Positions 1-24,366 of a stretch of DNA of 43,512 bases are shown here, one piece after another. The translations under genes were made by a program, and so were the position numbers. The stretch spans positions 1-43,512 of the IMG/VR virus record IMGVR_UViG_2563366800_000009. One strand, written 5' to 3'. Origin of the DNA: a virus. Lineage: Duplodnaviria > Heunggongvirae > Uroviricota > Caudoviricetes. The notes below the pieces were generated by a model. The model saw only the letters and a list, made by a program, of their open reading frames with translations. It had not been told where the DNA came from and did not search any database. Numbering within the stretch: the first letter of the stretch is position 1; every line of letters begins with the position of its first letter.

Positions 1-933
1 ATGGACAACGACAAAATTGATCAACACAGCGACGAAATTGAAGTTGAGAGCGAAGAAAAAGAGCGCGGCAAAAAAATAGAAATAGATGAAGACCGACTCC
101 CCTCCCGGGCGATGGCAATTCATGAGCATATCCGCCAGGATGGTGAAAAAGAGCTGGAACGCGACGCAATGGCGCTACTGTGGTCAGCCATTGCGGCGGG
201 TCTGTCGATGGGCGCTTCGTTACTGGCAAAAGGGATATTTCATGTCGAACTGGAAGGTGTGCCGGGCAGCTTCTTGCTGGAGAATCTCGGTTATACCTTT
301 GGTTTTATTATCGTCATTATGGCCCGCCAGCAATTATTTACCGAAAATACCGTGACTGCGGTACTACCCGTCATGCAAAAACCGACAATGAGCAACGTCG
401 GCTTACTTATACGGTTATGGGGCGTCGTGCTGCTGGGTAATATTCTCGGGACAGGTATTGCGGCGTGGGCATTTGAATATATGCCTATCTTCAATGAAGA
501 AACTCGCGATGCATTTGTCAAAATCGGCATGGATGTGATGAAGAACACCCCCAGCGAGATGTTTGCCAACGCGATCATTTCCGGCTGGCTGATCGCCACT
601 ATGGTTTGGATGTTTCCTGCAGCGGGTGCGGCAAAGATTGTGGTGATTATATTGATGACCTGGCTTATTGCCCTGGGTGACACCACCCATATCGTGGTCG
701 GTTCTGTTGAAATCCTCTATCTGGTGTTTAACGGTACGCTGCACTGGAGCGATTTCATCTGGCCCTTCGCACTACCTACTTTAGCGGGGAACATCTGCGG
801 CGGCACCTTTATCTTCGCGTTAATGAGTCATGCACAGATTCGTAACGACATGAGCAATAAGCGTAAAGCAGAAGCACGCCAAAAAGCAGAACGTGCGGAA
901 AACATTAAGAAAAATTATAAAAACCCGGCATAA
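1..933 (+). CDS. yfdC: Inner membrane protein YfdC, formate/nitrite transporter family; host gene flanking argW
   Basis: 310-aa ORF with multiple hydrophobic helices; recognised as YfdC; sits immediately upstream of argW as in E. coli K-12. Confidence 0.8.
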   Translation: MDNDKIDQHSDEIEVESEEKERGKKIEIDEDRLPSRAMAIHEHIRQDGEKELERDAMALLWSAIAAGLSMGASLLAKGIFHVELEGVPGSFLLENLGYTFGFIIVIMARQQLFTENTVTAVLPVMQKPTMSNVGLLIRLWGVVLLGNILGTGIAAWAFEYMPIFNEETRDAFVKIGMDVMKNTPSEMFANAIISGWLIATMVWMFPAAGAAKIVVIILMTWLIALGDTTHIVVGSVEILYLVFNGTLHWSDFIWPFALPTLAGNICGGTFIFALMSHAQIRNDMSNKRKAEARQKAERAENIKKNYKNPA

Positions 934-1008
934 ATGGCGAGGGTTTAAGCAATCGAGCGGCAGCGTACTTACCCCGCACTCCATTAGCGGGTATACTCAT
1001 GCCGCATT

Positions 1009-1083
1009 GTCCTCTTAGTTAAATGGATATAACGAGCCCCTCCTAAGGGCTAATTGCAGGTTCGATTCCTGCAGGGGACACCA
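1009..1083 (+). tRNA. argW: tRNA-Arg (anticodon CCU); prophage integration site (attL side)
   Basis: 75-nt cloverleaf read by eye: acceptor GTCCTCT/AGGGGAC, anticodon loop CTCCTAA, T-arm GGTTCGATTCC, discriminator A plus CCA. Confidence 0.9.
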
Positions 1084-1199
1084 TTTATCAGTTCGCTCCC
1101 ATCCGTACCAGTCCGCAAAATCCCCTGAATATCAAGCCTTCCGTATATTCACGGTTCGTCATGGTTCGCGTCAGATCGTTGACAGCCGCACTCCATGAC

Positions 1200-1244
1200 G
1201 GGTAAAAAGTGGATAAAATAATTTTACCCACCGGATTTTTACCC
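1200..1244 (+). promoter_or_regulatory. Repeat cluster directly upstream of intS: GGGTAAAAA (1200-1208) inverted relative to direct copies TTTTACCC (1222-1229) and TTTTTACCC (1236-1244); candidate recombination-protein binding sites or intS control region
   Basis: Repeats seen in sequence; last copy abuts the intS ATG. Confidence 0.4.
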
Positions 1245-2402
1245 ATGCTCACCGTTAAGCAGATTGAAGCAGCAAAGCCGAAAGAAAAACCATACCGCCT
1301 TCTCGATGGTAATGGCCTGTACCTTTATGTTCCTGTATCCGGGAAAAAGGTATGGCAGCTTCGCTACAAGATTGACGGTAAGGAGAAAATCCTGACCGTC
1401 GGAAAATATCCGCTTATGACTTTGCAGGAAGCAAGGGATAAGGCATGGACTGCGAGGAAAGACATCTCGGTTGGCATCGATCCGGTAAAGGCGAAAAAGG
1501 CTTCGTCTAACAACAATTCATTTAGTGCGATTTACAAGGAATGGTACGAGCACAAGAAGCAAGTCTGGTCAGTAGGCTATGCAACTGAACTTGCCAAAAT
1601 GTTTGATGACGACATTTTACCCATCATCGGCGGTCTTGAGATTCAGGATATTGAGCCGATGCAACTGCTGGAAGTAATCCGCAGATTTGAAGATCGCGGT
1701 GCAATGGAACGAGCCAATAAAGCCCGCAGAAGATGCGGCGAGGTTTTCCGTTACGCTATTGTCACCGGCAGGGCTAAATATAACCCGGCACCTGACCTTG
1801 CTGACGCCATGAAAGGATACCGCAAGAAGAACTTCCCGTTTCTTCCTGCCGACCAGATCCCGGCATTCAACAAAGCACTGGCAACATTTTCAGGAAGTAT
1901 CGTATCGCTCATTGCTACCAAAATTTTACGCTACACCGCCCTAAGAACGAAAGAGCTTCGTTCCATGCAATGGAAGAACGTCGATTTTGAAAACAGGATT
2001 ATCACCATCGACGCCAGTGTGATGAAGGGACGCAAAATTCATGTGGTCCCGATGTCAGACCAGGTGGTTGAACTTCTCACTACGCTAAGCTCCATCACTA
2101 AACCAGTATCAGAGTTTGTTTTTGCCGGGCGCAACGATAAGAAGAAGCCGATCTGCGAGAACGCGGTGCTGCTTGTGATCAAACAAATCGGCTATGAAGG
2201 TCTGGAAAGCGGTCACGGATTCAGGCATGAATTCAGCACGATTATGAACGAGCACGAATGGCCTGCTGACGCTATTGAAGTGCAACTGGCACATGCCAAC
2301 GGCGGATCTGTGCGTGGGATTTACAACCATGCTCAGTATCTCGATAAGCGCAGAGAAATGATGCAGTGGTGGGCGGATTATCTCGATGAGAGGGTGGCAT
2401 AG
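1245..2402 (+). CDS. intS: Tyrosine integrase IntS (P4-like family), 385 aa
   Basis: Protein begins MLTVKQIEAAKPKEKPYRLLDGNGLYLYVP, recognised as KplE1 IntS; ORF track extends it upstream to a GTG at 1209 but the ATG at 1245 gives the known 385-aa length; adjacent to tRNA. Confidence 0.9.
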   Translation: MLTVKQIEAAKPKEKPYRLLDGNGLYLYVPVSGKKVWQLRYKIDGKEKILTVGKYPLMTLQEARDKAWTARKDISVGIDPVKAKKASSNNNSFSAIYKEWYEHKKQVWSVGYATELAKMFDDDILPIIGGLEIQDIEPMQLLEVIRRFEDRGAMERANKARRRCGEVFRYAIVTGRAKYNPAPDLADAMKGYRKKNFPFLPADQIPAFNKALATFSGSIVSLIATKILRYTALRTKELRSMQWKNVDFENRIITIDASVMKGRKIHVVPMSDQVVELLTTLSSITKPVSEFVFAGRNDKKKPICENAVLLVIKQIGYEGLESGHGFRHEFSTIMNEHEWPADAIEVQLAHANGGSVRGIYNHAQYLDKRREMMQWWADYLDERVA

Positions 2403-2742: not shown

Positions 2743-4695
2743 CTAACGAAGCCATTGGCTTGGTTTTTGTTTCAGTATATGTATCGCCCCTTGACCGGAA
2801 GCTGCCTGTTGTGCAGTTGCTAGCGTCACTATGTAGGTATTCCCTACTGTTCTTGGTTGAGTAAGGTTAAACTGCAGCGGTGAAGTATCACAGGATATGT
2901 ATTCTATTCCTGAATCAGAAGTCACCTGAAATTCAGTATATAATACACTACCGGAAGAGATAGAAATGTGAATTGCTATCTCACCTCCAGTGTATACAAA
3001 AGGTATACTTGGCATATTTGAAAAATCCTTAAAGTTAAGCATTGACGATGAACTAATAACCTCTTTGCCTACGTCATTAGTAAGTTGAACCGGTTTAGTG
3101 TAATCATAAGCCAGTAGAACGTAATAGTTTACAAAATTTACAAAACTTGAAGACGCCTTTGAAGAGCTATGCCATGTTTTTTTATTGTCCACACGGTATA
3201 TGGATTGGATGTTTAGAAACTCACTTGCCGTTGCTCTTTGCAGTATACCAGTACCTATGCCAAAATGGATATTACCAACGTCAAACACGTGGTCCTCGAC
3301 ATTTCCTGTAGTTGATAATATCGCGATATCAGGCTCTGCACTATCTTCAAGCGCTTCACTGCATTTTTCAAAGTACATAGAACCAACAGACCAACTAACA
3401 GCGTTAACAGTAGCTAAACCAGCGCCTGCTGTGGTTTCAGCTATTAATGTTCCTATTCTTGATGCCAATCCTTGCCCGAGAGTGACACCGGCACCTATGA
3501 GCTGTGGGGTTAAAGATGATGAATACGGATCATACCCATAGGACAAAGATTTTGATGTGTTATACGCAGCGACGACACCAAATTCAACACCATTAACGTT
3601 TACGTCTCCGGTTTCACCGGAGAAACCATGTGCCAAAGAGACACCTCTTGCACAATCAATTCCCATATATTGATTTACTTTATGATACCAACTCCCAAGA
3701 AGTACAATTCCAACTTCTGTGGCATTATAAGCATATATAATGTCTGTGACAGATTCTGCAACTACACCAAAACCATAAAAACCGTAAGGCGCAACATTGT
3801 TAGCATCAATATTTAATGTACCAATGTGCCTAATTCCACGAACTTGTTGTTCAGGCAATGAAAGATCCGGGGATGTTCCTACTGGTTTTTTGCTGGCGCG
3901 AACTACAGCCTTTCCACCCCATGAATAGCCACTCATCGCTTTAATAGTTGCGCCGTTTGTTTCCATCACTAAATACGATGGGATAACAACTTCATCGCTA
4001 ACAAAATATGTACAACCAGGCGTTAACTCAATAAACCCTGTTTTAATTGCCATGTTAATTGCATTTAAACAATCACTTTCAGAATAAGGTTTGGCGCCGA
4101 AGTTCTCTGGGGTGTTTAAGTTAAACCCATTAAGTAGTCCAACGCATATCCAATTATCATCTGGATGGCTTCCAGCATCAACATCATAACCGCCTTCTAC
4201 TATATCTTTCCTGGCATAAAAATACATGTTTCCATCAGGATCGTTATCATAAAGAACAGCATAGCGCTCATCATCAATATGTCCACCTGATGAAAAACTA
4301 ATATCAGACTTAAAATAGAAGTTAAGTCTGAAATGATTTTTTGCCCATACAGAAAATTGATCAGGATCATACTTCAGCACATTCGGAAAATAGAACTGCT
4401 GCGCCCCATACGCATCATAAACAGCCATAGAATGGCCCTGTACAGTAACGAATTTGGCAATCTGTCCGTTATATACCGGATATCCAGCAGCGTTAATGAT
4501 GATTGGCTGCGAAACAGGAACGTGAGAGCCGTCTTCGTTCTCCACATAAACCTGAATCTGGTTTTCAGGATTTACCGGGTCAGTGTCAATTTTACCGATA
4601 TAAATTTTGCCATTGGCAACCGCTTTAAAAGAACGCGCCATAGTGAAGAGTTGCGAAGGCATTGATACGATCACATTGGCTGTAATGTCTGTCAT
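2743..4695 (-). CDS. Tailspike protein; P22-type N-terminal head-binding domain with divergent receptor-binding/enzymatic domain
   Basis: N-terminus [34 protein letters not shown]...[13 protein letters not shown] matches the conserved P22/Sf6/HK620 tailspike head-binding domain; the rest is distinct. Confidence 0.85.
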
Positions 4696-5674: not shown

Positions 5675-5736
5675 GTCAATATTTCCTAATCCGATTTGTT
5701 GATACCGAAGCCCTGACTGTTCCCGCAGTTGGGGCT

Positions 5737-5910
5737 TCAACTTTTTGCTAGATTACCTTTAGAACTATCCCGCCTTAAACTATCCACTAACCGCATTACC
5801 ATCTCGGTATTTATTGAGCGACCATTTTCTTTCGCTGACTTCTCGATTGCTAACTTAACCTCTAATGGGATGCGCAAAGGGTACTTTGGTGCGTCTGACT
5901 TGACTATCAT
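5737..5910 (-). CDS. arc: Arc-like ribbon-helix-helix repressor
   Basis: [35 protein letters not shown] resembles P22 Arc; GGAGG RBS before the ATG at 5910. Confidence 0.7.
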
Positions 5911-5928
5911 ATTACCTCCAATCAATTT

Positions 5929-5945
5929 GGTATAACCGTTATACC
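5929..5945. promoter_or_regulatory. 17-bp near-perfect palindrome GGTATAACCGTTATACC between divergent arc and mnt; candidate operator
   Basis: Palindrome seen in sequence in the divergent promoter region. Confidence 0.4.
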
Positions 5946-5998
5946 ATTGTGATCGCAGTGATGCAATAGTAATATCACCAAAATGCTATGGAGGTGGT

Positions 5999-6235
5999 AT
6001 GTCACGCGAAGAGCCGCAAATAAATATCAGGATTTCCAAAGAGTTAAAGGCAAAGGTTAAAGCCAGGGCGCAACATAACAAGCGTTCCATGAATGCTGAA
6101 ATAATACAGATTATCGAAGATGCTGTTTGTGGTAGATCGCTTAATAGCAATGAATTTGCTCAGAAAGAGGCTGACAAATTCAGGGATGCGCTGATTGAAA
6201 CACTGAAAACCATGTATGGTAAGGATGCAAAATGA
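5999..6235 (+). CDS. mnt: Mnt-like ribbon-helix-helix repressor
   Basis: N-terminus PQINIRISKELKAKVKARAQHNKRSMNAEIIQIIEDA resembles P22 Mnt; divergent from arc-ant. Confidence 0.7.
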   Translation: MSREEPQINIRISKELKAKVKARAQHNKRSMNAEIIQIIEDAVCGRSLNSNEFAQKEADKFRDALIETLKTMYGKDAK

Positions 6236-6441
6236 ATAAAAAACAGTTTATTAAGTCAAAAACATCAAGCAAGGAAGAGCTAGAGAAAGAGCTAAACTCC
6301 CTGAAATATGCTCTGTGTCTGGTTTACTCAAGACTGCCAATGGAAGATAAAAACGCTATTTACAATGAAATGATTAGCAGCCTTGATTTTAACGATAGAG
6401 ACCTAGCATCCCACCTCAACAGCTTCCGCGTCCCTGAGTAA
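6232..6441 (+). CDS. Hypothetical 69-aa protein, translationally coupled to mnt
   Basis: ATGA start/stop overlap with mnt; AT-rich. Confidence 0.5.
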   Translation: MNKKQFIKSKTSSKEELEKELNSLKYALCLVYSRLPMEDKNAIYNEMISSLDFNDRDLASHLNSFRVPE

Positions 6442-6601
6442 TTCTGTTGCGGATTTGCTTCTTGCGGTGGTTTAGGCTGGAGAGCTTGGCTTCTGCTTCC
6501 GATATTTGCGCATCCAGATCTTTAAGTTCAAGATCTGAAAGTCGCTGGTCAAGCAGGGTTTGATTCAACTCGATGTTGTTCAGGCGTTCTTCTATGGTCA
6601 T
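6416..6601 (-). CDS. Hypothetical 61-aa coiled-coil ORF convergent with and overlapping the 69-aa ORF
   Basis: Heptad-like sequence MTIEERLNNIELNQTLLDQRLSDLELKDLDAQ; no clear RBS. Confidence 0.3.
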   Translation of the reverse strand: MTIEERLNNIELNQTLLDQRLSDLELKDLDAQISEAEAKLSSLNHRKKQIRNRITQGRGSC

Positions 6602-6626
6602 ATTGTTACCTTAGTGGGAGGTTGGC

Positions 6627-6983
6627 GTGAATGGTCAAACAATCATCATAATATTACTGAGCTTAATAGTTGCTAAGTTATATCCCCAAATCGGTTATAT
6701 TTCCCTAGTTGTCTGTACCTTGGTGGTCTTGGTATACGGGATATATAAAGTTTTTTCTTGGCTATTGCGTTTTAATGCTGCAAGAAAAACTATTTGGATC
6801 ATATTATTAGCAGCTATTGCAGCAACACCAGTGGGAATAGGGTATATCATAGATATTTTTTACCCTTCAAAAACAAAGGCATGGGTCATCGTCATTTGCT
6901 TTTACATCGCAGGTGTTTTTTTATTTGCTTTTCATTGGTGCTTTGTAAAGATTAATGAATACATATCAAGGGAAAAAAACTAA
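6627..6983 (+). CDS. Small integral membrane protein (about 4 TM helices) at the P22 sieA position; candidate superinfection-exclusion protein
   Basis: GTG start with GGGAGG RBS; strongly hydrophobic; visibly AT-rich; between mnt and the end of the late operon. Confidence 0.6.
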   Translation: MNGQTIIIILLSLIVAKLYPQIGYISLVVCTLVVLVYGIYKVFSWLLRFNAARKTIWIILLAAIAATPVGIGYIIDIFYPSKTKAWVIVICFYIAGVFLFAFHWCFVKINEYISREKN

Positions 6984-7006
6984 TATATGCCGTCCATGGC
7001 ATTTAG

Positions 7007-8755
7007 TCACTGCTGTGTTGCCTCAGTGGCAAGCAGCGGTCTGATGGCATTTGCAGCGTTACTTAATGCTCTTTCATAGGCTGGCGTTCCTGCCTTGGTG
7101 TTTGCCAGACGTAAGAGAGCATTCCTAGCCATAGGGCTTTCATAAACCCTCGACATAAGGCCAATCCCTGTTTCCCCAGCCAATAGCGCGCCTCCGGTTT
7201 TTAGGTTACCAATAACCCTTACCAAAGGCGCGAGTGTCATGCCAGTCTTCGTCACAACATTAGCCTCAGATGCTCTTTTGGTAGCATCGAGAATAGATAA
7301 CATCCCCTCTATCTCTTTTCCGTTCTTCCCACCAAATACAGTTTTAAACACCTGACCATTTGCTTGTTTTTGCAGCTTGCCAAGCTCGGTCATCATTTTC
7401 TGAGGGCTGTCACCTACCTTGTCAGCTATTTTGCTGATATATGCCGCCCTTAGCATGTCTTTACCTTTTTGATCGAGTTTCCCGTACAATCGAGCTATAT
7501 CTGACCCATATTGTCCATACACAATGGTATTTACAGCCTCGGGAGTTAAATCTCCTTTGTTTAGAACGTTTTTAAGGCGCGTTTGAGTTACATGTGTTGC
7601 CATTTTTGCATAATCAGCTTTTCCCGCTCTCCATGCTGAAGCATCTTTTGGGCTAAGTCCTTTCGCTATAGATTTACTAAGGCTATTGGTTAGCGAGTTA
7701 TAGACCCTGTCGACCATTGTTTGCGACATTGATGGCAGAACTGTACGATCGCCTTTTACGTCAATGCGGAACTGAGTTCTCAGCTTATCAAGTAACTCAA
7801 AGGCATCATCTCCATTTGTTATCTCCTGAATGGCATTCTTATAATCATTAAGCGCAGAAATGGTCTGGGTGTCAGAAACACCTTTAAGTTTCCCAAGTTC
7901 GTTTACTGCTCCGTCGATAGCTCTTATGGCGCCACTTGTATCAACTGGCTTTCCAACCATTCTTCCTGACAGGCTGTTTAGTTTTGACTTGGCTAACGAT
8001 TTTTCCCTTGCAACGCCTGACTTTAGACTATCAACGACTACAGATGGATCGTAGTCGCCGTATTTTTCGGTGAAGCGATTAACAAGCTTGGTTCTGGCAT
8101 CCTGCTGTGCGGCTCTCATTGGTCCAGTACCAGCTATGACTCCTTCTGAGTAACCCTGCAGTTGATTGCCAAGTTTTGTTTTTGGAGGAACTACATCCGA
8201 TGTCATAACTGGTACATCTGCCGCAGCGGCACGCTTGAGCAATTGCTGATCTGCTGGTGATATTTCGCCACGAACAGCAGTAATTCCACGCCCTATTCCC
8301 TTTGCTGCTGCGGAAAGAACCCCCTGAGCGGCAAGGTTAACTCCGGCGTTTCTTGCTGCATTTTGTGCGAAATCGCCTTTCTGATTTGCGGCCTCTGCCA
8401 GTGATCCAATAGCCATACTTCCTGCCGTTCCAACTCCTGGAACTAAATACCCGCCAATTGTTTCTCCAGCTTGAGCGTAGGAGTCTGTCGGTCTGTCTAC
8501 TGGACGATAGACATCATCCAATACTTTTGGCCCGCCTAACCCCTGACTAATAGCGTTAATCAGGCTTGCACCGCCCTGCAGCACATCGAACGGAATGTTT
8601 ACCAGGCCGCGACCGGCCTGCTCTGCGCTCTGCAACAGAGACTGCTCTTGCGGTTGAGCTGGCTGCTCATCAAACTGATCAAAGAAGTTACCCTCTGCCG
8701 CTGGAGTTTCCGGTTGAGGGATGGCTTCATCAAATTGGTCGAAGAAATTCGCCAT
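7007..8755 (-). CDS. Ejection (E) protein, P22 gp16-like
   Basis: 582 aa; size and position at the end of the late operon match P22 gene 16. Confidence 0.7.
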   Translation of the reverse strand: MANFFDQFDEAIPQPETPAAEGNFFDQFDEQPAQPQEQSLLQSAEQAGRGLVNIPFDVLQGGASLINAISQGLGGPKVLDDVYRPVDRPTDSYAQAGETIGGYLVPGVGTAGSMAIGSLAEAANQKGDFAQNAARNAGVNLAAQGVLSAAAKGIGRGITAVRGEISPADQQLLKRAAAADVPVMTSDVVPPKTKLGNQLQGYSEGVIAGTGPMRAAQQDARTKLVNRFTEKYGDYDPSVVVDSLKSGVAREKSLAKSKLNSLSGRMVGKPVDTSGAIRAIDGAVNELGKLKGVSDTQTISALNDYKNAIQEITNGDDAFELLDKLRTQFRIDVKGDRTVLPSMSQTMVDRVYNSLTNSLSKSIAKGLSPKDASAWRAGKADYAKMATHVTQTRLKNVLNKGDLTPEAVNTIVYGQYGSDIARLYGKLDQKGKDMLRAAYISKIADKVGDSPQKMMTELGKLQKQANGQVFKTVFGGKNGKEIEGMLSILDATKRASEANVVTKTGMTLAPLVRVIGNLKTGGALLAGETGIGLMSRVYESPMARNALLRLANTKAGTPAYERALSNAANAIRPLLATEATQQ

Positions 8756-12196: not shown

Positions 12197-13614
12197 TACT
12201 CAATCCTTATCTGGCAGCCAGACAGAGTGACAGGTGACTTCGTGATAACGCGCAATTTGAAACCAATGTTTTTCCTGATGCGCCCTACTTTCTTCCACAA
12301 AACGCGTTTGTCGTAAACGAACGGTTCATTCTGCTCAATCATCTGCTCACGCCCGTAATTGATGCCGTCAGTGGTTGCAGAGAGGAACAGGCGGTCGGCG
12401 TACTGAGCTACGCCAGTGGATGATTCCACCTCCAGATCGAAGCATCTGGCGTTATCCGCTTTGAACAGTGGAGTAAACAGCAGGTGTTCCTGTTGAAGCC
12501 CATACTGACTGCTGATATCGAACTGCAATTTCCCGGTCACGGACTCCAGCTTATCGCCGCACGTTATTTGGTTGCCTTCGTAAATGAAGTCGATAGCGCG
12601 GTACACATCGTCATACAGGCCTGTTTTCAGTACACACCATTGCGGGCCATTGGAGCTTGAAGATGCGTCGTAAACAAGAACATGGCGCGGAAGGTGGATA
12701 ATCAGCAACTCATGCGCATCAAACCGCAACGATTCCATCACGCCATCAGCCAGTTCATCAGCAGTGTAGGAGCGGAGGATTTTCTCAATGCTCGCACTGG
12801 CGATTGGTGACACCTGACCGGAGCCGATGATGTACACAGACGGCGCACCTGTTGCCGGATTGCTGATGAACGCATATGAATCAGCAAACGGCGTTTTGCA
12901 GTAGGTTCCGGCGATTCCTTTTTGCACCATCAACGATGGCTGGGCGACATACAAAGCGGCACCAACAGTGGTTGCGCCCGTCAGGGAGAAATATTCAATC
13001 GTCGATGAACCAAAGCAGACGATGAAGTCTCGCCATGTACCTATGCCGATGATGCCATCAGGCTGAGATTCTGCGCGATATTGTGCGCTGTATCGGTCAG
13101 GATGTGATTCGTCTTCAAGGTCAGTGATAAACCATGAATCAGTACCGTCTTTTGACCACGCATAACGCCCACGTAAGCGCGTAATGTCACGAACTGAACC
13201 TAACTCGTACTGTGTGAATCCGCTGTCTGTAGGCCAGTTTGAGACGGTTTTAACCGTGCCATCATAGCGATACTCGACCAGTTGACCATTAACACCTACC
13301 GCCTGTGATGTCCGACCATGAGCCATTGATACTCGACCACTTCCGGCAACATCACCGACTTCACTTTCTCCTTTGTACAGCTTCCCACCACACACACGAT
13401 AAACAGCATTCTGCGCCATGTTGTACTCGACGCCGCGCGATACGCCGTTCACATCAGAACGTTTGGCAATGCCCGGGAATGAGCGAAGATATCCGCTGCT
13501 GTTAAGGATTTCTTTTGGTGTAGCCAACATATTCACTGGCAGATAGTCGATATAGTCGGCGTTTCGAAAGTCTTTGCCGACGCCTTTCATAAGCGGAAGT
13601 TGCTGAATCGGCAT
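12196..13614 (-). CDS. Tail hub protein, P22 gp10-like
   Basis: 472 aa, same length and position as P22 gp10. Confidence 0.75.
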
Positions 13615-24210: not shown

Positions 24211-24286
24211 TGGTGCTGGTTAACGGACTTGAACCGCTACCCATTCGCTTACAAGGCGACTGCTCTACCATTGGAGCTAAACCAGC
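24211..24286 (-). tRNA. Phage-encoded tRNA-Thr-like gene (anticodon UGU)
   Basis: Cloverleaf read by eye: acceptor GCTGGTT/AACCAGC, D-arm GCTC-CAATGGTA-GAGC, anticodon loop CTTGTAA, T-loop TTCAAGT, discriminator A, CCA; one anticodon-stem mismatch. Confidence 0.6.
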
Positions 24287-24291
24287 ATGTT

Positions 24292-24366
24292 TGGCGGGAC
24301 AGCGTGGACTCGAACCACGATAAGAAGGTTAACAGCCTTCCGTAATGACCTTTATACGACTGACCC
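24292..24366 (-). tRNA. Phage-encoded tRNA-Asn-like gene (anticodon GUU), possibly degenerate
   Basis: Anticodon arm GAAGG-CTGTTAA-CCTTC, T-arm CGTGG-TTCGAGT-CCACG, 3' GCCA; acceptor stem has a T-T mismatch and the D-stem is only 3 bp. Confidence 0.4.

What the first reader, a model, noticed from the sequence alone, without database searches (positions are those of the whole stretch)
6232..6983. AT-rich cassette at the P22 sieA position: mnt-coupled 69-aa ORF plus 118-aa four-TM membrane protein
In P22 the superinfection-exclusion gene sieA lies between mnt and gene 16. Here that slot holds a 69-aa ORF coupled to mnt and a small polytopic membrane protein with a strong RBS, convergent on the late operon and visibly AT-richer than its neighbours. 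I could not match either to a protein I know. This is a plausible lysogen-expressed exclusion or abortive-infection module of unknown type.
Basis: inference. Interest (0 to 1): 0.7.

Follow-up and report, generated by a model that had tools for sequence, protein, structure and literature searches.

The report
Orphan membrane gene in P22 sieA slot
An E. coli P22-like prophage carries, exactly where phage P22 keeps its superinfection-exclusion gene sieA, a rare, unrelated four-helix membrane protein gene that is probably a new kind of entry blocker; the 69-aa ORF beside it is a separate, common module.

Summary
The ORFs are real, but they do not form one cassette. The window is a P22-like prophage of E. 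coli integrated at argW/yfdC. Between mnt and gene 16 lie three independently assorting pieces:
- ORF69 (6232-6441, +), start-stop coupled to mnt. It is common: the ORF69-ORF61 pair is in 74 of 5426 complete E. coli genomes and in phages Kapi1 and Emek.
It overlaps the ORF69 3' end.
- ORF118 (6627-6983, +), with a GTG start and a GGAGG ribosome-binding site. At 33.6% GC it is the most AT-rich stretch of its length in the window.

ORF118 is a real gene (dN/dS 0.13). It is predicted to have four transmembrane helices, N-in/C-in. Its family is tiny: 5 hits among 1.84 billion representatives, none in 50,697 phage records, 1 of 5426 E. coli genomes.

In all 28 relatives' loci the gene sits immediately next to, and convergent with, gene 16. 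The upstream neighbours and the gp16 types vary, and no SieA type A or B was found within the sequence fetched for any of these loci. ORF118 has no detectable sequence homology to SieA types A or B and lacks the SieA motif.

Best reading (about 0.4): a non-homologous positional analogue of SieA that blocks DNA entry. This function is inferred, not shown.

The parts
5999..6235 (+). mnt-type Arc/ribbon-helix-helix repressor gene (78 aa), first gene of the plus-strand, lysogen-oriented transcription unit
   Evidence: Pfam Arc PF03869 E 5.7e-13. 98% nt identity to phage Kapi1 'Arc family regulatory protein'.
6232..6441 (+). ORF69, a soluble 69-aa protein of unknown function. Its ATG overlaps the mnt stop codon (ATGA).
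   Evidence: PHROG 16466 over its full length, E 4.6e-51, function unknown. Same gene in Kapi1, Emek, L006 and L022. 4-5 synonymous against 0-1 non-synonymous differences. The ORF69-ORF61 pair is in 74 of 5426 E. coli genomes.
6416..6601 (-). ORF61, a conserved 61-aa coiled-coil protein with a basic C-terminus, on the late-operon strand. It overlaps the ORF69 3' end by 26 nt.
   Evidence: PHROG 7586 over its full length, E 3.3e-44. Annotated in Emek (orf61), Kapi1 and RefSeq WP_000151196.1. 6-7 synonymous against 0-1 non-synonymous differences in this frame. Only weak XhlA/DUF3847 similarity, below cut-off.
6576..6604 (+). Candidate weak own promoter for ORF118: -35 TTGTTC (6576-6581), 17-nt spacer, -10 CATATT (6599-6604). 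It lies inside the ORF61 5' coding end.
   Evidence: Inference from sequence. It scores 7 of 12 against the consensus, below the 9 of 12 threshold of the scan. CATATT lies where Salmonella relatives and L016 have a shared TGnTAT(C/G)CT extended -10-like element about 31 nt upstream of the start codon.
6617..6629 (+). Ribosome-binding site GGGAGG plus GTG start codon. This conserved 'linker' forms the left boundary of the ORF118 module.
   Evidence: (A/G)GGAGGTTGG(C/T) followed by a GTG or ATG start codon is conserved in relatives down to 47-50% protein identity. Nucleotide homology to Salmonella prophages begins at 6617. The same linker starts a different cargo gene (a signal-peptide protein like Sf6 gp38) in L022.
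6627..6983 (+). ORF118, a 118-aa protein with four predicted transmembrane helices (about 5-16, 22-40, 55-75, 86-106). Predicted N-in/C-in, with conserved periplasmic turns KLYP and D-x-F-Y-P-x-x-T-E-R-W. It occupies the sieA slot.
   Evidence: dN/dS 0.13 at dS 0.55 against Salmonella copies. Four helices by AF2 and hydropathy. Positive-inside charge counts. Orphan family. Always adjacent to gene 16. 33.6% GC.
6987..7002 (.). Small inverted repeat ATGCCGTCCATGGCAT in the 23-nt spacer between the ORF118 stop and the gene 16 stop. It is the right boundary linker of the slot.
   Evidence: Terminator-like on the minus strand. Variants of the GCCGTCCATGGC core are present after ORF118 relatives, after Kapi1_059 and after P22 sieA. 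The fold is weak: -10 kcal/mol, z -1.3.
7007..8755 (-). Gene 16 homologue (ejection protein, 582 aa). It is the constant neighbour of the slot and the proposed target partner.
   Evidence: 52% identical to P22 gp16 by tblastn. RefSeq names the 98% identical copy 'P22-gp16 family phage DNA ejection protein'. It is followed by gene 20 (Inj_translocase PF16928, E 4e-108).

Best explanation
ORF118 is an independently mobile 'moron' cassette that occupies the gene-16-adjacent slot of the variable 'ant moron' region of P22-like prophages. This is the slot that holds sieA in P22 and in prophage HS1.

The cassette runs from 6617 to 7000: ribosome-binding site, GTG start, 118 codons, then a short hairpin. 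The protein is a small polytopic inner-membrane protein, predicted 4 TM and N-in/C-in.

Proposed mechanism (inferred):
- It is made in the lysogen, either by read-through from Pmnt (mnt, then ORF69, then ORF118) or from a weak promoter of its own.
- It inserts in the inner membrane.
- Like SieA, it prevents superinfecting P22-like phages from delivering DNA across the inner membrane, by interfering with the gp20/gp16 ejection-protein conduit.
- It does so with a non-homologous protein whose most conserved loops face the periplasm, whereas the conserved SieA motif is predicted to be cytoplasmic.

ORF69 is not part of this unit. It is a separate, common gene of unknown function in the mnt operon. 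ORF61 is a separate gene on the late-operon strand.

Shown: gene reality, membrane character (predicted), orphan status, slot fidelity, absence of SieA A/B from the fetched loci, lack of detectable sequence homology to SieA A/B.
Inferred: expression in the lysogen, inner-membrane location, exclusion activity and its target.
For: 1. Position and orientation match sieA. In P22, sieA is convergent with gene 16 across 22 nt. In HS1 the type B sieA is 21 nt from gene 16. Here the gap is 23 nt.
2. Slot fidelity. In all 28 loci carrying a family member (39-100% identity; E. coli, Salmonella, metagenomic and IMG/VR contigs) the gene is immediately adjacent to and convergent with gene 16. The upstream genes vary: ORF61, P63C, YafO toxin, DUF1902, ClpP, Arc genes. 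In L016 the tailspike lies directly upstream.
3. The associated gp16 types are very different. Identical ORF118 copies sit beside gp16 proteins 98%, 54% and 38% identical to the window's; others are undetectable by tblastn. This parallels the published breadth of SieA against divergent ejection proteins (PMC10883804).
4. No locus with ORF118 carries SieA type A or B within the fetched sequence (the whole window; about 4-6 kb on each side of the gene in relatives), although types A and B detect each other at E 1e-19.
5. It is a real gene under purifying selection: dN/dS 0.13.
6. Four predicted transmembrane helices with positive-inside support. SieA is a 3-4 TM inner-membrane protein (PMC10883804).
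7. It is antisense to the late operon, so it cannot be a late gene. No intrinsic terminator is predicted between mnt and ORF118.
8. It has typical moron composition: 33.6% GC, the window minimum.
9. [quoted passage not shown]
Against: - There is no experimental or expression evidence of any kind.
- There is no detectable sequence homology to SieA: hhalign probability 0.2% against type A and 4% against type B. The SieA motif FxRYPxEAxxFNK is absent.
- The structure models are low-confidence (pLDDT 63-66, pTM 0.35-0.43), and Foldseek found nothing against viral models. Fold-level similarity is therefore untested.
- The same slot also holds secreted, non-membrane proteins in other phages (Kapi1_059; the Sf6 gp38-like protein in Emek and L021). 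Slot occupancy alone does not prove an exclusion function.
- The neighbouring cargo in relatives includes toxin-antitoxin-type genes (YafO, Panacea). Other defence modes are therefore plausible for this region.
- No strong sigma-70 promoter is seen upstream in the window.
- Several relatives are frameshifted, so the gene is dispensable.
Confidence: 0.4

Rival explanations
1. ORF118 is a defence effector of another type. It would be a small membrane protein that kills or depolarises the cell on infection (abortive infection, in the style of RexB or a holin), or that excludes phages unrelated to P22, rather than an entry blocker aimed at the ejection-protein conduit.
For: The region between mnt and gene 16 carries toxin-antitoxin and defence-like cargo in relatives: YafO toxin, Panacea-domain protein, DUF1902/HicB-like, P63C. 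ORF118 is a small 4-TM protein like RexB by architecture. There is a weak PADLOC hit to candidate PDC-M48A (E 0.005, 15 bits).
Against: There is no partner or sensor gene that travels with it; its upstream neighbours change freely. There is no hit to RexB, holins or other PADLOC, PHROG or Pfam models. The strict linkage is to gene 16, which fits an entry-level function better.
Confidence: 0.15
2. ORF118 is a lysogenic-conversion or fitness cargo gene unrelated to phage defence. It might affect envelope physiology, stress tolerance or colonisation. On this view it sits next to gene 16 only because the conserved linkers there make the site a recombination-permissive insertion point.
For: The slot is bounded by conserved linkers: the GGAGGTTGGnGTG start linker and the GCCGTCCATGGC hairpin. 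Unrelated cargo genes are exchanged there, including secreted proteins. Morons often encode host-fitness factors (general knowledge). The gene is AT-rich and looks foreign.
Against: The family is confined to P22-like prophage contexts and is never seen elsewhere. The scan of one genome for each of 185,579 species gave no hit, and the exhaustive HMMER search gave only 5. That argues for a phage-specific role. The characterised occupant of this slot is an exclusion protein (PMC10883804).
Confidence: 0.2
3. ORF69 plus ORF118 form one functional two-gene module.
For: Both lie on the plus strand downstream of mnt, with no predicted terminator between them.
Against: ORF69 occurs without ORF118 in Kapi1, Emek and 74 E. 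coli genomes. ORF118 relatives occur without ORF69 in nearly all loci. The minus-strand gene ORF61 lies between them. Nucleotide homology blocks break at 6602-6617.
Confidence: 0.03
4. ORF118 is silent or decaying cargo with no current function in this prophage.
For: There is no strong promoter. The AT-rich composition may attract H-NS silencing (general knowledge). Frameshifted relatives exist (P0020, P0021, P0025-27). The gene is very rare (1 of 5426 E. coli genomes).
Against: The reading frame is intact with a conserved strong ribosome-binding site. dN/dS is 0.13 across E. coli and Salmonella copies that differ by 14% in nucleotides. Intact copies occur in many independent E. coli and Salmonella assemblies.
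Confidence: 0.1

Closest known systems
SieA superinfection-exclusion protein of phage P22 (type A) and prophage HS1 (type B) (Leavitt et al. 2024, PMC10883804)
   Same: Same genomic slot and orientation in a P22-like prophage: immediately convergent with gene 16, about 22 nt spacer, same spacer hairpin motif. Small polytopic membrane protein with 3-4 TM. Expected prophage expression. Found beside very diverse gp16 types. Where one is found the other was not, within the sequence fetched for each locus.
   Different: No detectable sequence similarity (hhalign probability 0.2-4%; no tblastn hit). Lacks the conserved cytoplasmic FxRYPxEAxxFNK motif. Shorter (118 aa against 164-212 aa), with no long soluble loop. 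Its conserved non-TM residues are predicted to be periplasmic. Function untested.
Other small inner-membrane entry blockers encoded by phages: HK97 gp15 and T4 Imm (named from my own knowledge, not tested directly here)
   Same: Small membrane protein. HK97 gp15 is moron-encoded, expressed from the prophage or early, and blocks DNA translocation across the inner membrane.
   Different: No PHROG, Pfam or PADLOC match links ORF118 to them. They have 2 TM rather than 4, and sit in different phage groups and genomic contexts.
The 'ant moron' of P22-like phages (Villafane et al. 2008, PMC2629481)
   Same: [quoted passage not shown] The region is known to hold immI, sieA and unique genes of unknown function.
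   Different: The ORF118 family itself was not mentioned in the three papers consulted here (PMC10883804, PMC8022706, PMC2629481). None of the 50,697 phage records searched carries it.

Membership tests
SieA (types A/B/C; Pfam PF26849) | Detectable sequence homology to SieA proteins | tested here: not met
   BLASTP against P22 SieA gives E 2.3. hhalign of the ORF118 family against the type A alignment gives probability 0.2-0.3%, and against HS1 type B 4%. tblastn with SieA A and B finds nothing in the window or in any ORF118 locus, while A and B find each other at 1e-19. Type C was not tested. The local Pfam copy lacks PF26849, so the Pfam negative is not a test.
SieA (types A/B/C; Pfam PF26849) | Conserved C-terminal motif FxRYPxEAxxFNK (PMC10883804) | tested here: not met
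   The ORF118 C-terminus is ...FAFHWCFVKINEYISREKN. HS1 SieA shows FNRYPGEARKFNK, and the type A alignment keeps F144 G R Y P .. E A .. F N K.
SieA (types A/B/C; Pfam PF26849) | Located in a P22-like prophage between genes 16 and 9, next to gene 16 | tested here: met
   Window layout. All 28 family loci. P22 and HS1 used for reference.
SieA (types A/B/C; Pfam PF26849) | Integral inner-membrane protein with 3-4 transmembrane helices | tested here: inconclusive
   Four hydrophobic helices by hydropathy and AF2 secondary structure, with a positive-inside pattern consistent with N-in/C-in. This is prediction only; localisation is not testable here.
SieA (types A/B/C; Pfam PF26849) | Blocks DNA injection by P22-like phages; escape mutations map to gp16 and gp20 | not testable with these tools
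   Requires plating, K+ efflux and escape-mutant experiments.
Phage moron | Self-contained unit inserted in an operon, present or absent among relatives, deviant base composition, transcribed independently of the surrounding late operon | tested here: met
   The homology block 6617-7000 has sharp boundaries. It is absent from Kapi1, Emek and P22 at the same site. GC is 33.6% against 47.8%. It is antisense to the late operon. The promoter is only inferred.
RexB and other PADLOC defence proteins | Match to a PADLOC-DB model | tested here: not met
   The only hit is a weak one to candidate PDC-M48A (E 0.0049, 15 bits). There is no RexB hit.
GtrA-like 4-TM flippase (about 120 aa, PF04138) and holins | Match to the Pfam or PHROG family | tested here: not met
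   There are no such hits, even at E up to 10. Only sub-threshold DUF4149 and DUF2975 hits appear. The gene is antisense to the late (lysis) transcription.

The most novel reading that the evidence does not exclude
The ORF118 family is a fourth class of gene-16-linked inner-membrane exclusion proteins, evolutionarily unrelated to SieA. The site next to gene 16 would then be a dedicated, linker-flanked swap site. At this site P22-like prophages exchange unrelated envelope proteins (SieA A/B/C, ORF118-type, secreted gp38-like or Kapi1_059-like proteins) that all target the ejection-protein DNA conduit, from different sides of the membrane.
Probability: 0.3. Interest if true: 0.6.

Novelty: new variant of a known kind. 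Interest (0 to 1): 0.42.

Why it matters
How SieA blocks the gp7/gp20/gp16 DNA-delivery conduit is still not understood, and SieA acts despite extreme diversity in the ejection proteins (PMC10883804). A second, unrelated membrane protein fixed at the same slot would help in three ways if it also excludes P22-like phages:
- It would be an independent probe of the conduit, through different escape mutations and a different contact surface. Its conserved loops are predicted to face the periplasm.
- It would show convergent recruitment of exclusion functions to one site.
- It would flag the gene-16-adjacent slot as a place to mine for new entry-level defences.

If it does not exclude phages, it is one more uncharacterised moron in a region already known to be hypervariable.

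Tried and rejected
Searches that found no family of known function for ORF118:
- Pfam, PHROGs, NCBIfam and PADLOC gave nothing significant for ORF118. ORF69 and ORF61 hit only PHROG families of unknown function.
- A PDB sequence search with the family profile gave 0 hits at E up to 10. For ORF69 it gave only noise.
- AlphaFold2 was run twice, with 4 and then 9 sequences. pLDDT was 62.6 and 66.2, too low for a trustworthy tertiary model. Foldseek against BFVD gave a best E of 3. Further fold searches were not run, because the model is unreliable.

Searches for relatives:
- The word-indexed search of 5.8 billion proteins gave 3 clusters.
- Exhaustive HMMER over 1.84 billion representatives gave 5 hits.
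- The profile search gave 19 hits, many of them fragments or frameshifted.
- The GTDB representative-genome scan gave none.
- IMG/VR gave 4 loci.
- tblastn against 50,697 phage records gave none.

Ideas considered and rejected:
- The 129-151-aa annotations of relatives are not the real protein. Their N-terminal extensions are not conserved, and the window has an in-frame TAG.
- An intrinsic terminator between ORF69 and ORF118 was looked for and not found.
- The spacer hairpin is not significantly stable.
- The idea that ORF118 co-varies with one gp16 type is rejected.
- The two-gene cassette idea is rejected.

Not tested:
- SieA type C was not compared, because no sequence was in hand.
Full report
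**Setting.** The window is a complete P22-like (Lederbergvirus-type) prophage of E. coli.
- Bases 1-933 are the host gene yfdC (100% identical to E. coli chromosomes; FNT transporter family).
- tRNA-Arg(CCU) lies at 1009-1083, followed by an integrase at 1209-2402.
- The phage then runs in reversed orientation: tailspike 2743-4695(-), ant, sar antisense RNA (Rfam RF00262, 71.6 bits, 5676-5742+), arc 5737-5925(-), mnt 5999-6235(+), and the ejection-protein genes 16 (7007-8755-) and 20 (8766-10187-).
- In P22 itself, sieA (164 aa, with its own promoter) lies between mnt/orf59a and gene 16. It is convergent with gene 16 across a 22-nt spacer.

**What is in 6232-6983.** There are three genes, not two.
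1. ORF69 (6232-6441, +). Its ATG overlaps the mnt stop codon (ATGA). It matches PHROG 16466 (function unknown) over its full length, E 4.6e-51.
2. It matches PHROG 7586 over its full length (E 3.3e-44) and is annotated in Emek (orf61), Kapi1 and RefSeq. Against relatives it shows 6-7 synonymous and 0-1 non-synonymous differences in this frame, so it is a real gene. It lies on the late-operon strand, overlaps the ORF69 3' end by 26 nt, and is a coiled-coil protein with a basic tail. It has only sub-threshold XhlA/DUF3847 similarity.
3. ORF118 (6627-6983, +). It has a GTG start 4 nt after GGGAGG. An in-frame TAG at 6612-6614, together with the non-conserved N-terminal extensions of database entries (129, 143 and 151 aa), shows that the conserved GTG is the true start.

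**Composition.** ORF118 is 33.6% GC against 47.8% for the window, the lowest of all 357-bp windows. ORF69 is 38.6% (6th percentile). ORF61 is 47.3%, which is average. The 'AT-rich cassette' is really an AT-rich ORF118, a mildly AT-rich ORF69 and an ordinary gene between them.

**The pieces are separate mosaic modules.**
- The mnt-ORF69-ORF61 block is 98% identical to phage Kapi1. ORF69-ORF61 is 96% identical to phage Emek. Homology stops at about 6602.
- The ORF69-ORF61 pair occurs in 74 of 5426 complete E. coli genomes.
- ORF118 DNA is in none of 50,697 phage records, by megablast or tblastn, and in only 1 of 5426 E. coli genomes (NCCP 13717).
- The ORF118 homology block with Salmonella prophages is 6617-7000, at 86% nucleotide identity. 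It runs from the ribosome-binding site to a small inverted repeat, ATGCCGTCCATGGCAT (6987-7002), in the spacer before the gene 16 stop.
- In E. coli relatives the order is a gp38-like signal-peptide gene, then ORF61, then ORF118, with no ORF69.
- In Salmonella relatives the upstream neighbour is P63C, YafO toxin plus a 188-aa ORF, DUF1902 or ClpP. In L015 it is four Arc-family genes. In L016 the gene sits directly between tailspike and gene 16, with no immI region.

**Both ends of the slot carry short conserved linkers.**
- Upstream: the string (A/G)GGAGGTTGGn followed by a GTG or ATG start is kept down to 47-50% protein identity. In L022 the same linker initiates an unrelated gene, a signal-peptide protein like Sf6 gp38.
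- Downstream: the GCCGTCCATGGC-type hairpin also follows P22 sieA and Kapi1_059.

**ORF118 is a real, orphan membrane protein.**
- Against the Salmonella copies (14% nucleotide divergence), dS is 0.55, dN is 0.073 and dN/dS is 0.13.
- Hydropathy shows four peaks. AF2 predicts four helices (2-18, 20-47, 50-78, 80-117), broken at P20, about N50 and P80.
- K and R residues concentrate in loop 41-54 and in the C-terminus, while loop 76-85 is neutral or acidic in relatives. One subfamily has a 41-residue, highly charged C-terminal extension. Together these support an N-in/C-in topology.
- Invariant residues cluster in TM1 (GQ-IIILL-LIV-KLY) and in the predicted periplasmic TM3-TM4 turn (P68, G70, Y73, I75, D76, P80, W86).
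- The family is tiny. There are 3 clusters among 5.8 billion proteins, 5 hits at E up to 0.001 among 1.84 billion representatives by exhaustive HMMER, and 19 by profile search, many of them frameshifted fragments. There are none in one genome for each of 185,579 species and 4 loci in IMG/VR.
- No family match of known function was found in Pfam, PHROGs, NCBIfam, PADLOC or by PDB sequence search.
- The structure models are low-confidence (pLDDT 63-66), and Foldseek against viral models found nothing.

**Relation to SieA.** According to Leavitt et al. 2024 (PMC10883804):
- It is sufficient to block DNA injection by P22-like phages.
- Escape mutations map to the C-terminal regions of gp16 and gp20.
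- All lie between genes 16 and 9 of P22-like prophages.

ORF118 shares the slot, the orientation, the spacer and the general architecture. In 28 family loci the adjacent gene is always gene 16. Identical ORF118 copies lie beside gp16 proteins that are 98%, 54% or 38% identical to the window's gp16, and other gp16 neighbours are not detectable at all. None of these loci carries SieA type A or B within the fetched sequence (the whole window; about 4-6 kb on each side of the gene in relatives), whereas A and B detect each other at E 1e-19.

ORF118 is nevertheless not a detectable SieA homologue. BLASTP gives E 2.3. hhalign gives probability 0.2-0.3% against type A and 4% against HS1 type B. The motif is absent. 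The local Pfam copy lacks the SieA model PF26849, so that negative result is not informative. Type C was not compared.

**Expression (inferred only).**
- ORF118 is antisense to the late operon, so it cannot be made from the late message.
- No intrinsic terminator is predicted on the plus strand between mnt and ORF118, so read-through from Pmnt is possible.
- Relatives carry a conserved TGnTAT(C/G)CT extended -10-like element about 31 nt upstream of the start. At the same position the window has CATATT (6599-6604), with TTGTTC 17 nt upstream. This is a weak candidate promoter inside the 5' end of ORF61 and falls below the scan threshold.

**Interpretation.** The most economical explanation is that ORF118 is a non-homologous positional analogue of SieA. 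[quoted passage not shown]

Several points count against certainty:
- There is no functional or expression evidence.
- Other phages hold secreted, non-membrane proteins in the same slot (Kapi1_059; the Sf6 gp38-like protein).
- The wider region carries toxin-antitoxin-type cargo in relatives.
- Some relatives are decaying.

The rivals are another defence mode (0.15), a non-defence conversion function that happens to use a recombination-permissive site (0.2), and silent cargo (0.1).

ORF69 remains a conserved gene of unknown function in the mnt operon. ORF61 is a conserved gene on the late-operon strand, also of unknown function.

**Verdict.** ORF118 is a rare, uncharacterised family that would be a new variant of a known kind of system (SieA-type exclusion at the gene 16 slot). 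It lies inside a region already known to be hypervariable, the 'ant moron' (PMC2629481). Interest is moderate: it is a clean, cheap experimental target that could give an independent handle on the P22 DNA-entry conduit, but nothing here is mechanistically surprising yet.

Noticed in passing
window 6416-6601 (-): ORF61 is a conserved 61-aa coiled-coil gene on the late-operon strand (PHROG 7586). It overlaps the 3' end of ORF69 by 26 nt, and its start codon is only 25 nt from the ORF118 start, in divergent orientation. Its position suggests it is expressed from late read-through transcription towards the tailspike gene. Function unknown.
   Followed up: partly
window 6617-6629 and 6987-7002; L022:2540-2575; L001:4205-4235; L004 about 13314-13335: Short conserved linkers flank the slot next to gene 16: the GGAGGTTGGnGTG start linker and the GCCGTCCATGGC hairpin. 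Different phages carry unrelated cargo genes between them (ORF118, an Sf6 gp38-like signal-peptide protein, Kapi1_059, sieA). This looks like a cassette-exchange site with junctions right at the start codon.
   Followed up: partly
window 5676-5742 (+): A full-length sar antisense RNA (Rfam RF00262, 71.6 bits, E 3e-14) lies between arc and ant, with its terminator hairpin at 5707-5738. The immI region (ant, sar, arc, mnt) therefore looks complete. The longest ant ORF (TTG at 5740) probably starts further in, at the ATG of MKSIAKAQ (about 5674).
   Followed up: partly
window 5929-5947: A perfect palindrome, TGGTATAACCGTTATACCA, lies in the arc-mnt divergent intergenic region. It is probably the Arc/Mnt operator. 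A candidate Pmnt (TTGTGA, 17 nt, TAATAT) lies just downstream.
   Followed up: no
window 1-2402: The left prophage end is host yfdC, then tRNA-Arg(CCU) at 1009-1083, then the integrase. The integrase lies directly next to the tailspike, with no gtrABC O-antigen conversion operon between them, unlike P22.
   Followed up: partly
window 24211-24366 (-): Two phage-borne tRNA genes, tRNA-Thr(UGU) and tRNA-Asn(GUU), lie inside the prophage.
   Followed up: no
L005-L014, L021 (relatives), region between mnt and the ORF118-type gene: The same interval in related Salmonella and E. coli prophages carries toxin-antitoxin or defence-like cargo: YafO toxin with a 188-aa partner, a Panacea-domain protein, DUF1902/HicB-like, P63C and a ClpP-family protease. 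This suggests the 'ant moron' is a defence-gene hotspot.
   Followed up: no
L017-L019, L034-L035 (E. coli relatives, 39-40% identity): A divergent ORF118-type gene sits next to genes 16 and 20 in what looks like a degraded or atypical element: a primase gene lies close by, PerC and Peptidase_M78 genes lie upstream, and host genes are adjacent. Many copies are frameshifted (P0020, P0021, P0025-P0027).
   Followed up: no
P0028 (L023:1695-2090), P0030: Two proteins share only the N-terminal TM1 motif M(Q/K)GQT(I/V)IIILLxLIVAKLYP with the ORF118 family and diverge after it. P0028 has four TM helices and is also convergent with a gene-16-like ORF. P0030 has two TM helices plus a charged tail. TM1 may be the functional core, or the site may be a recombination junction.
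   Followed up: partly
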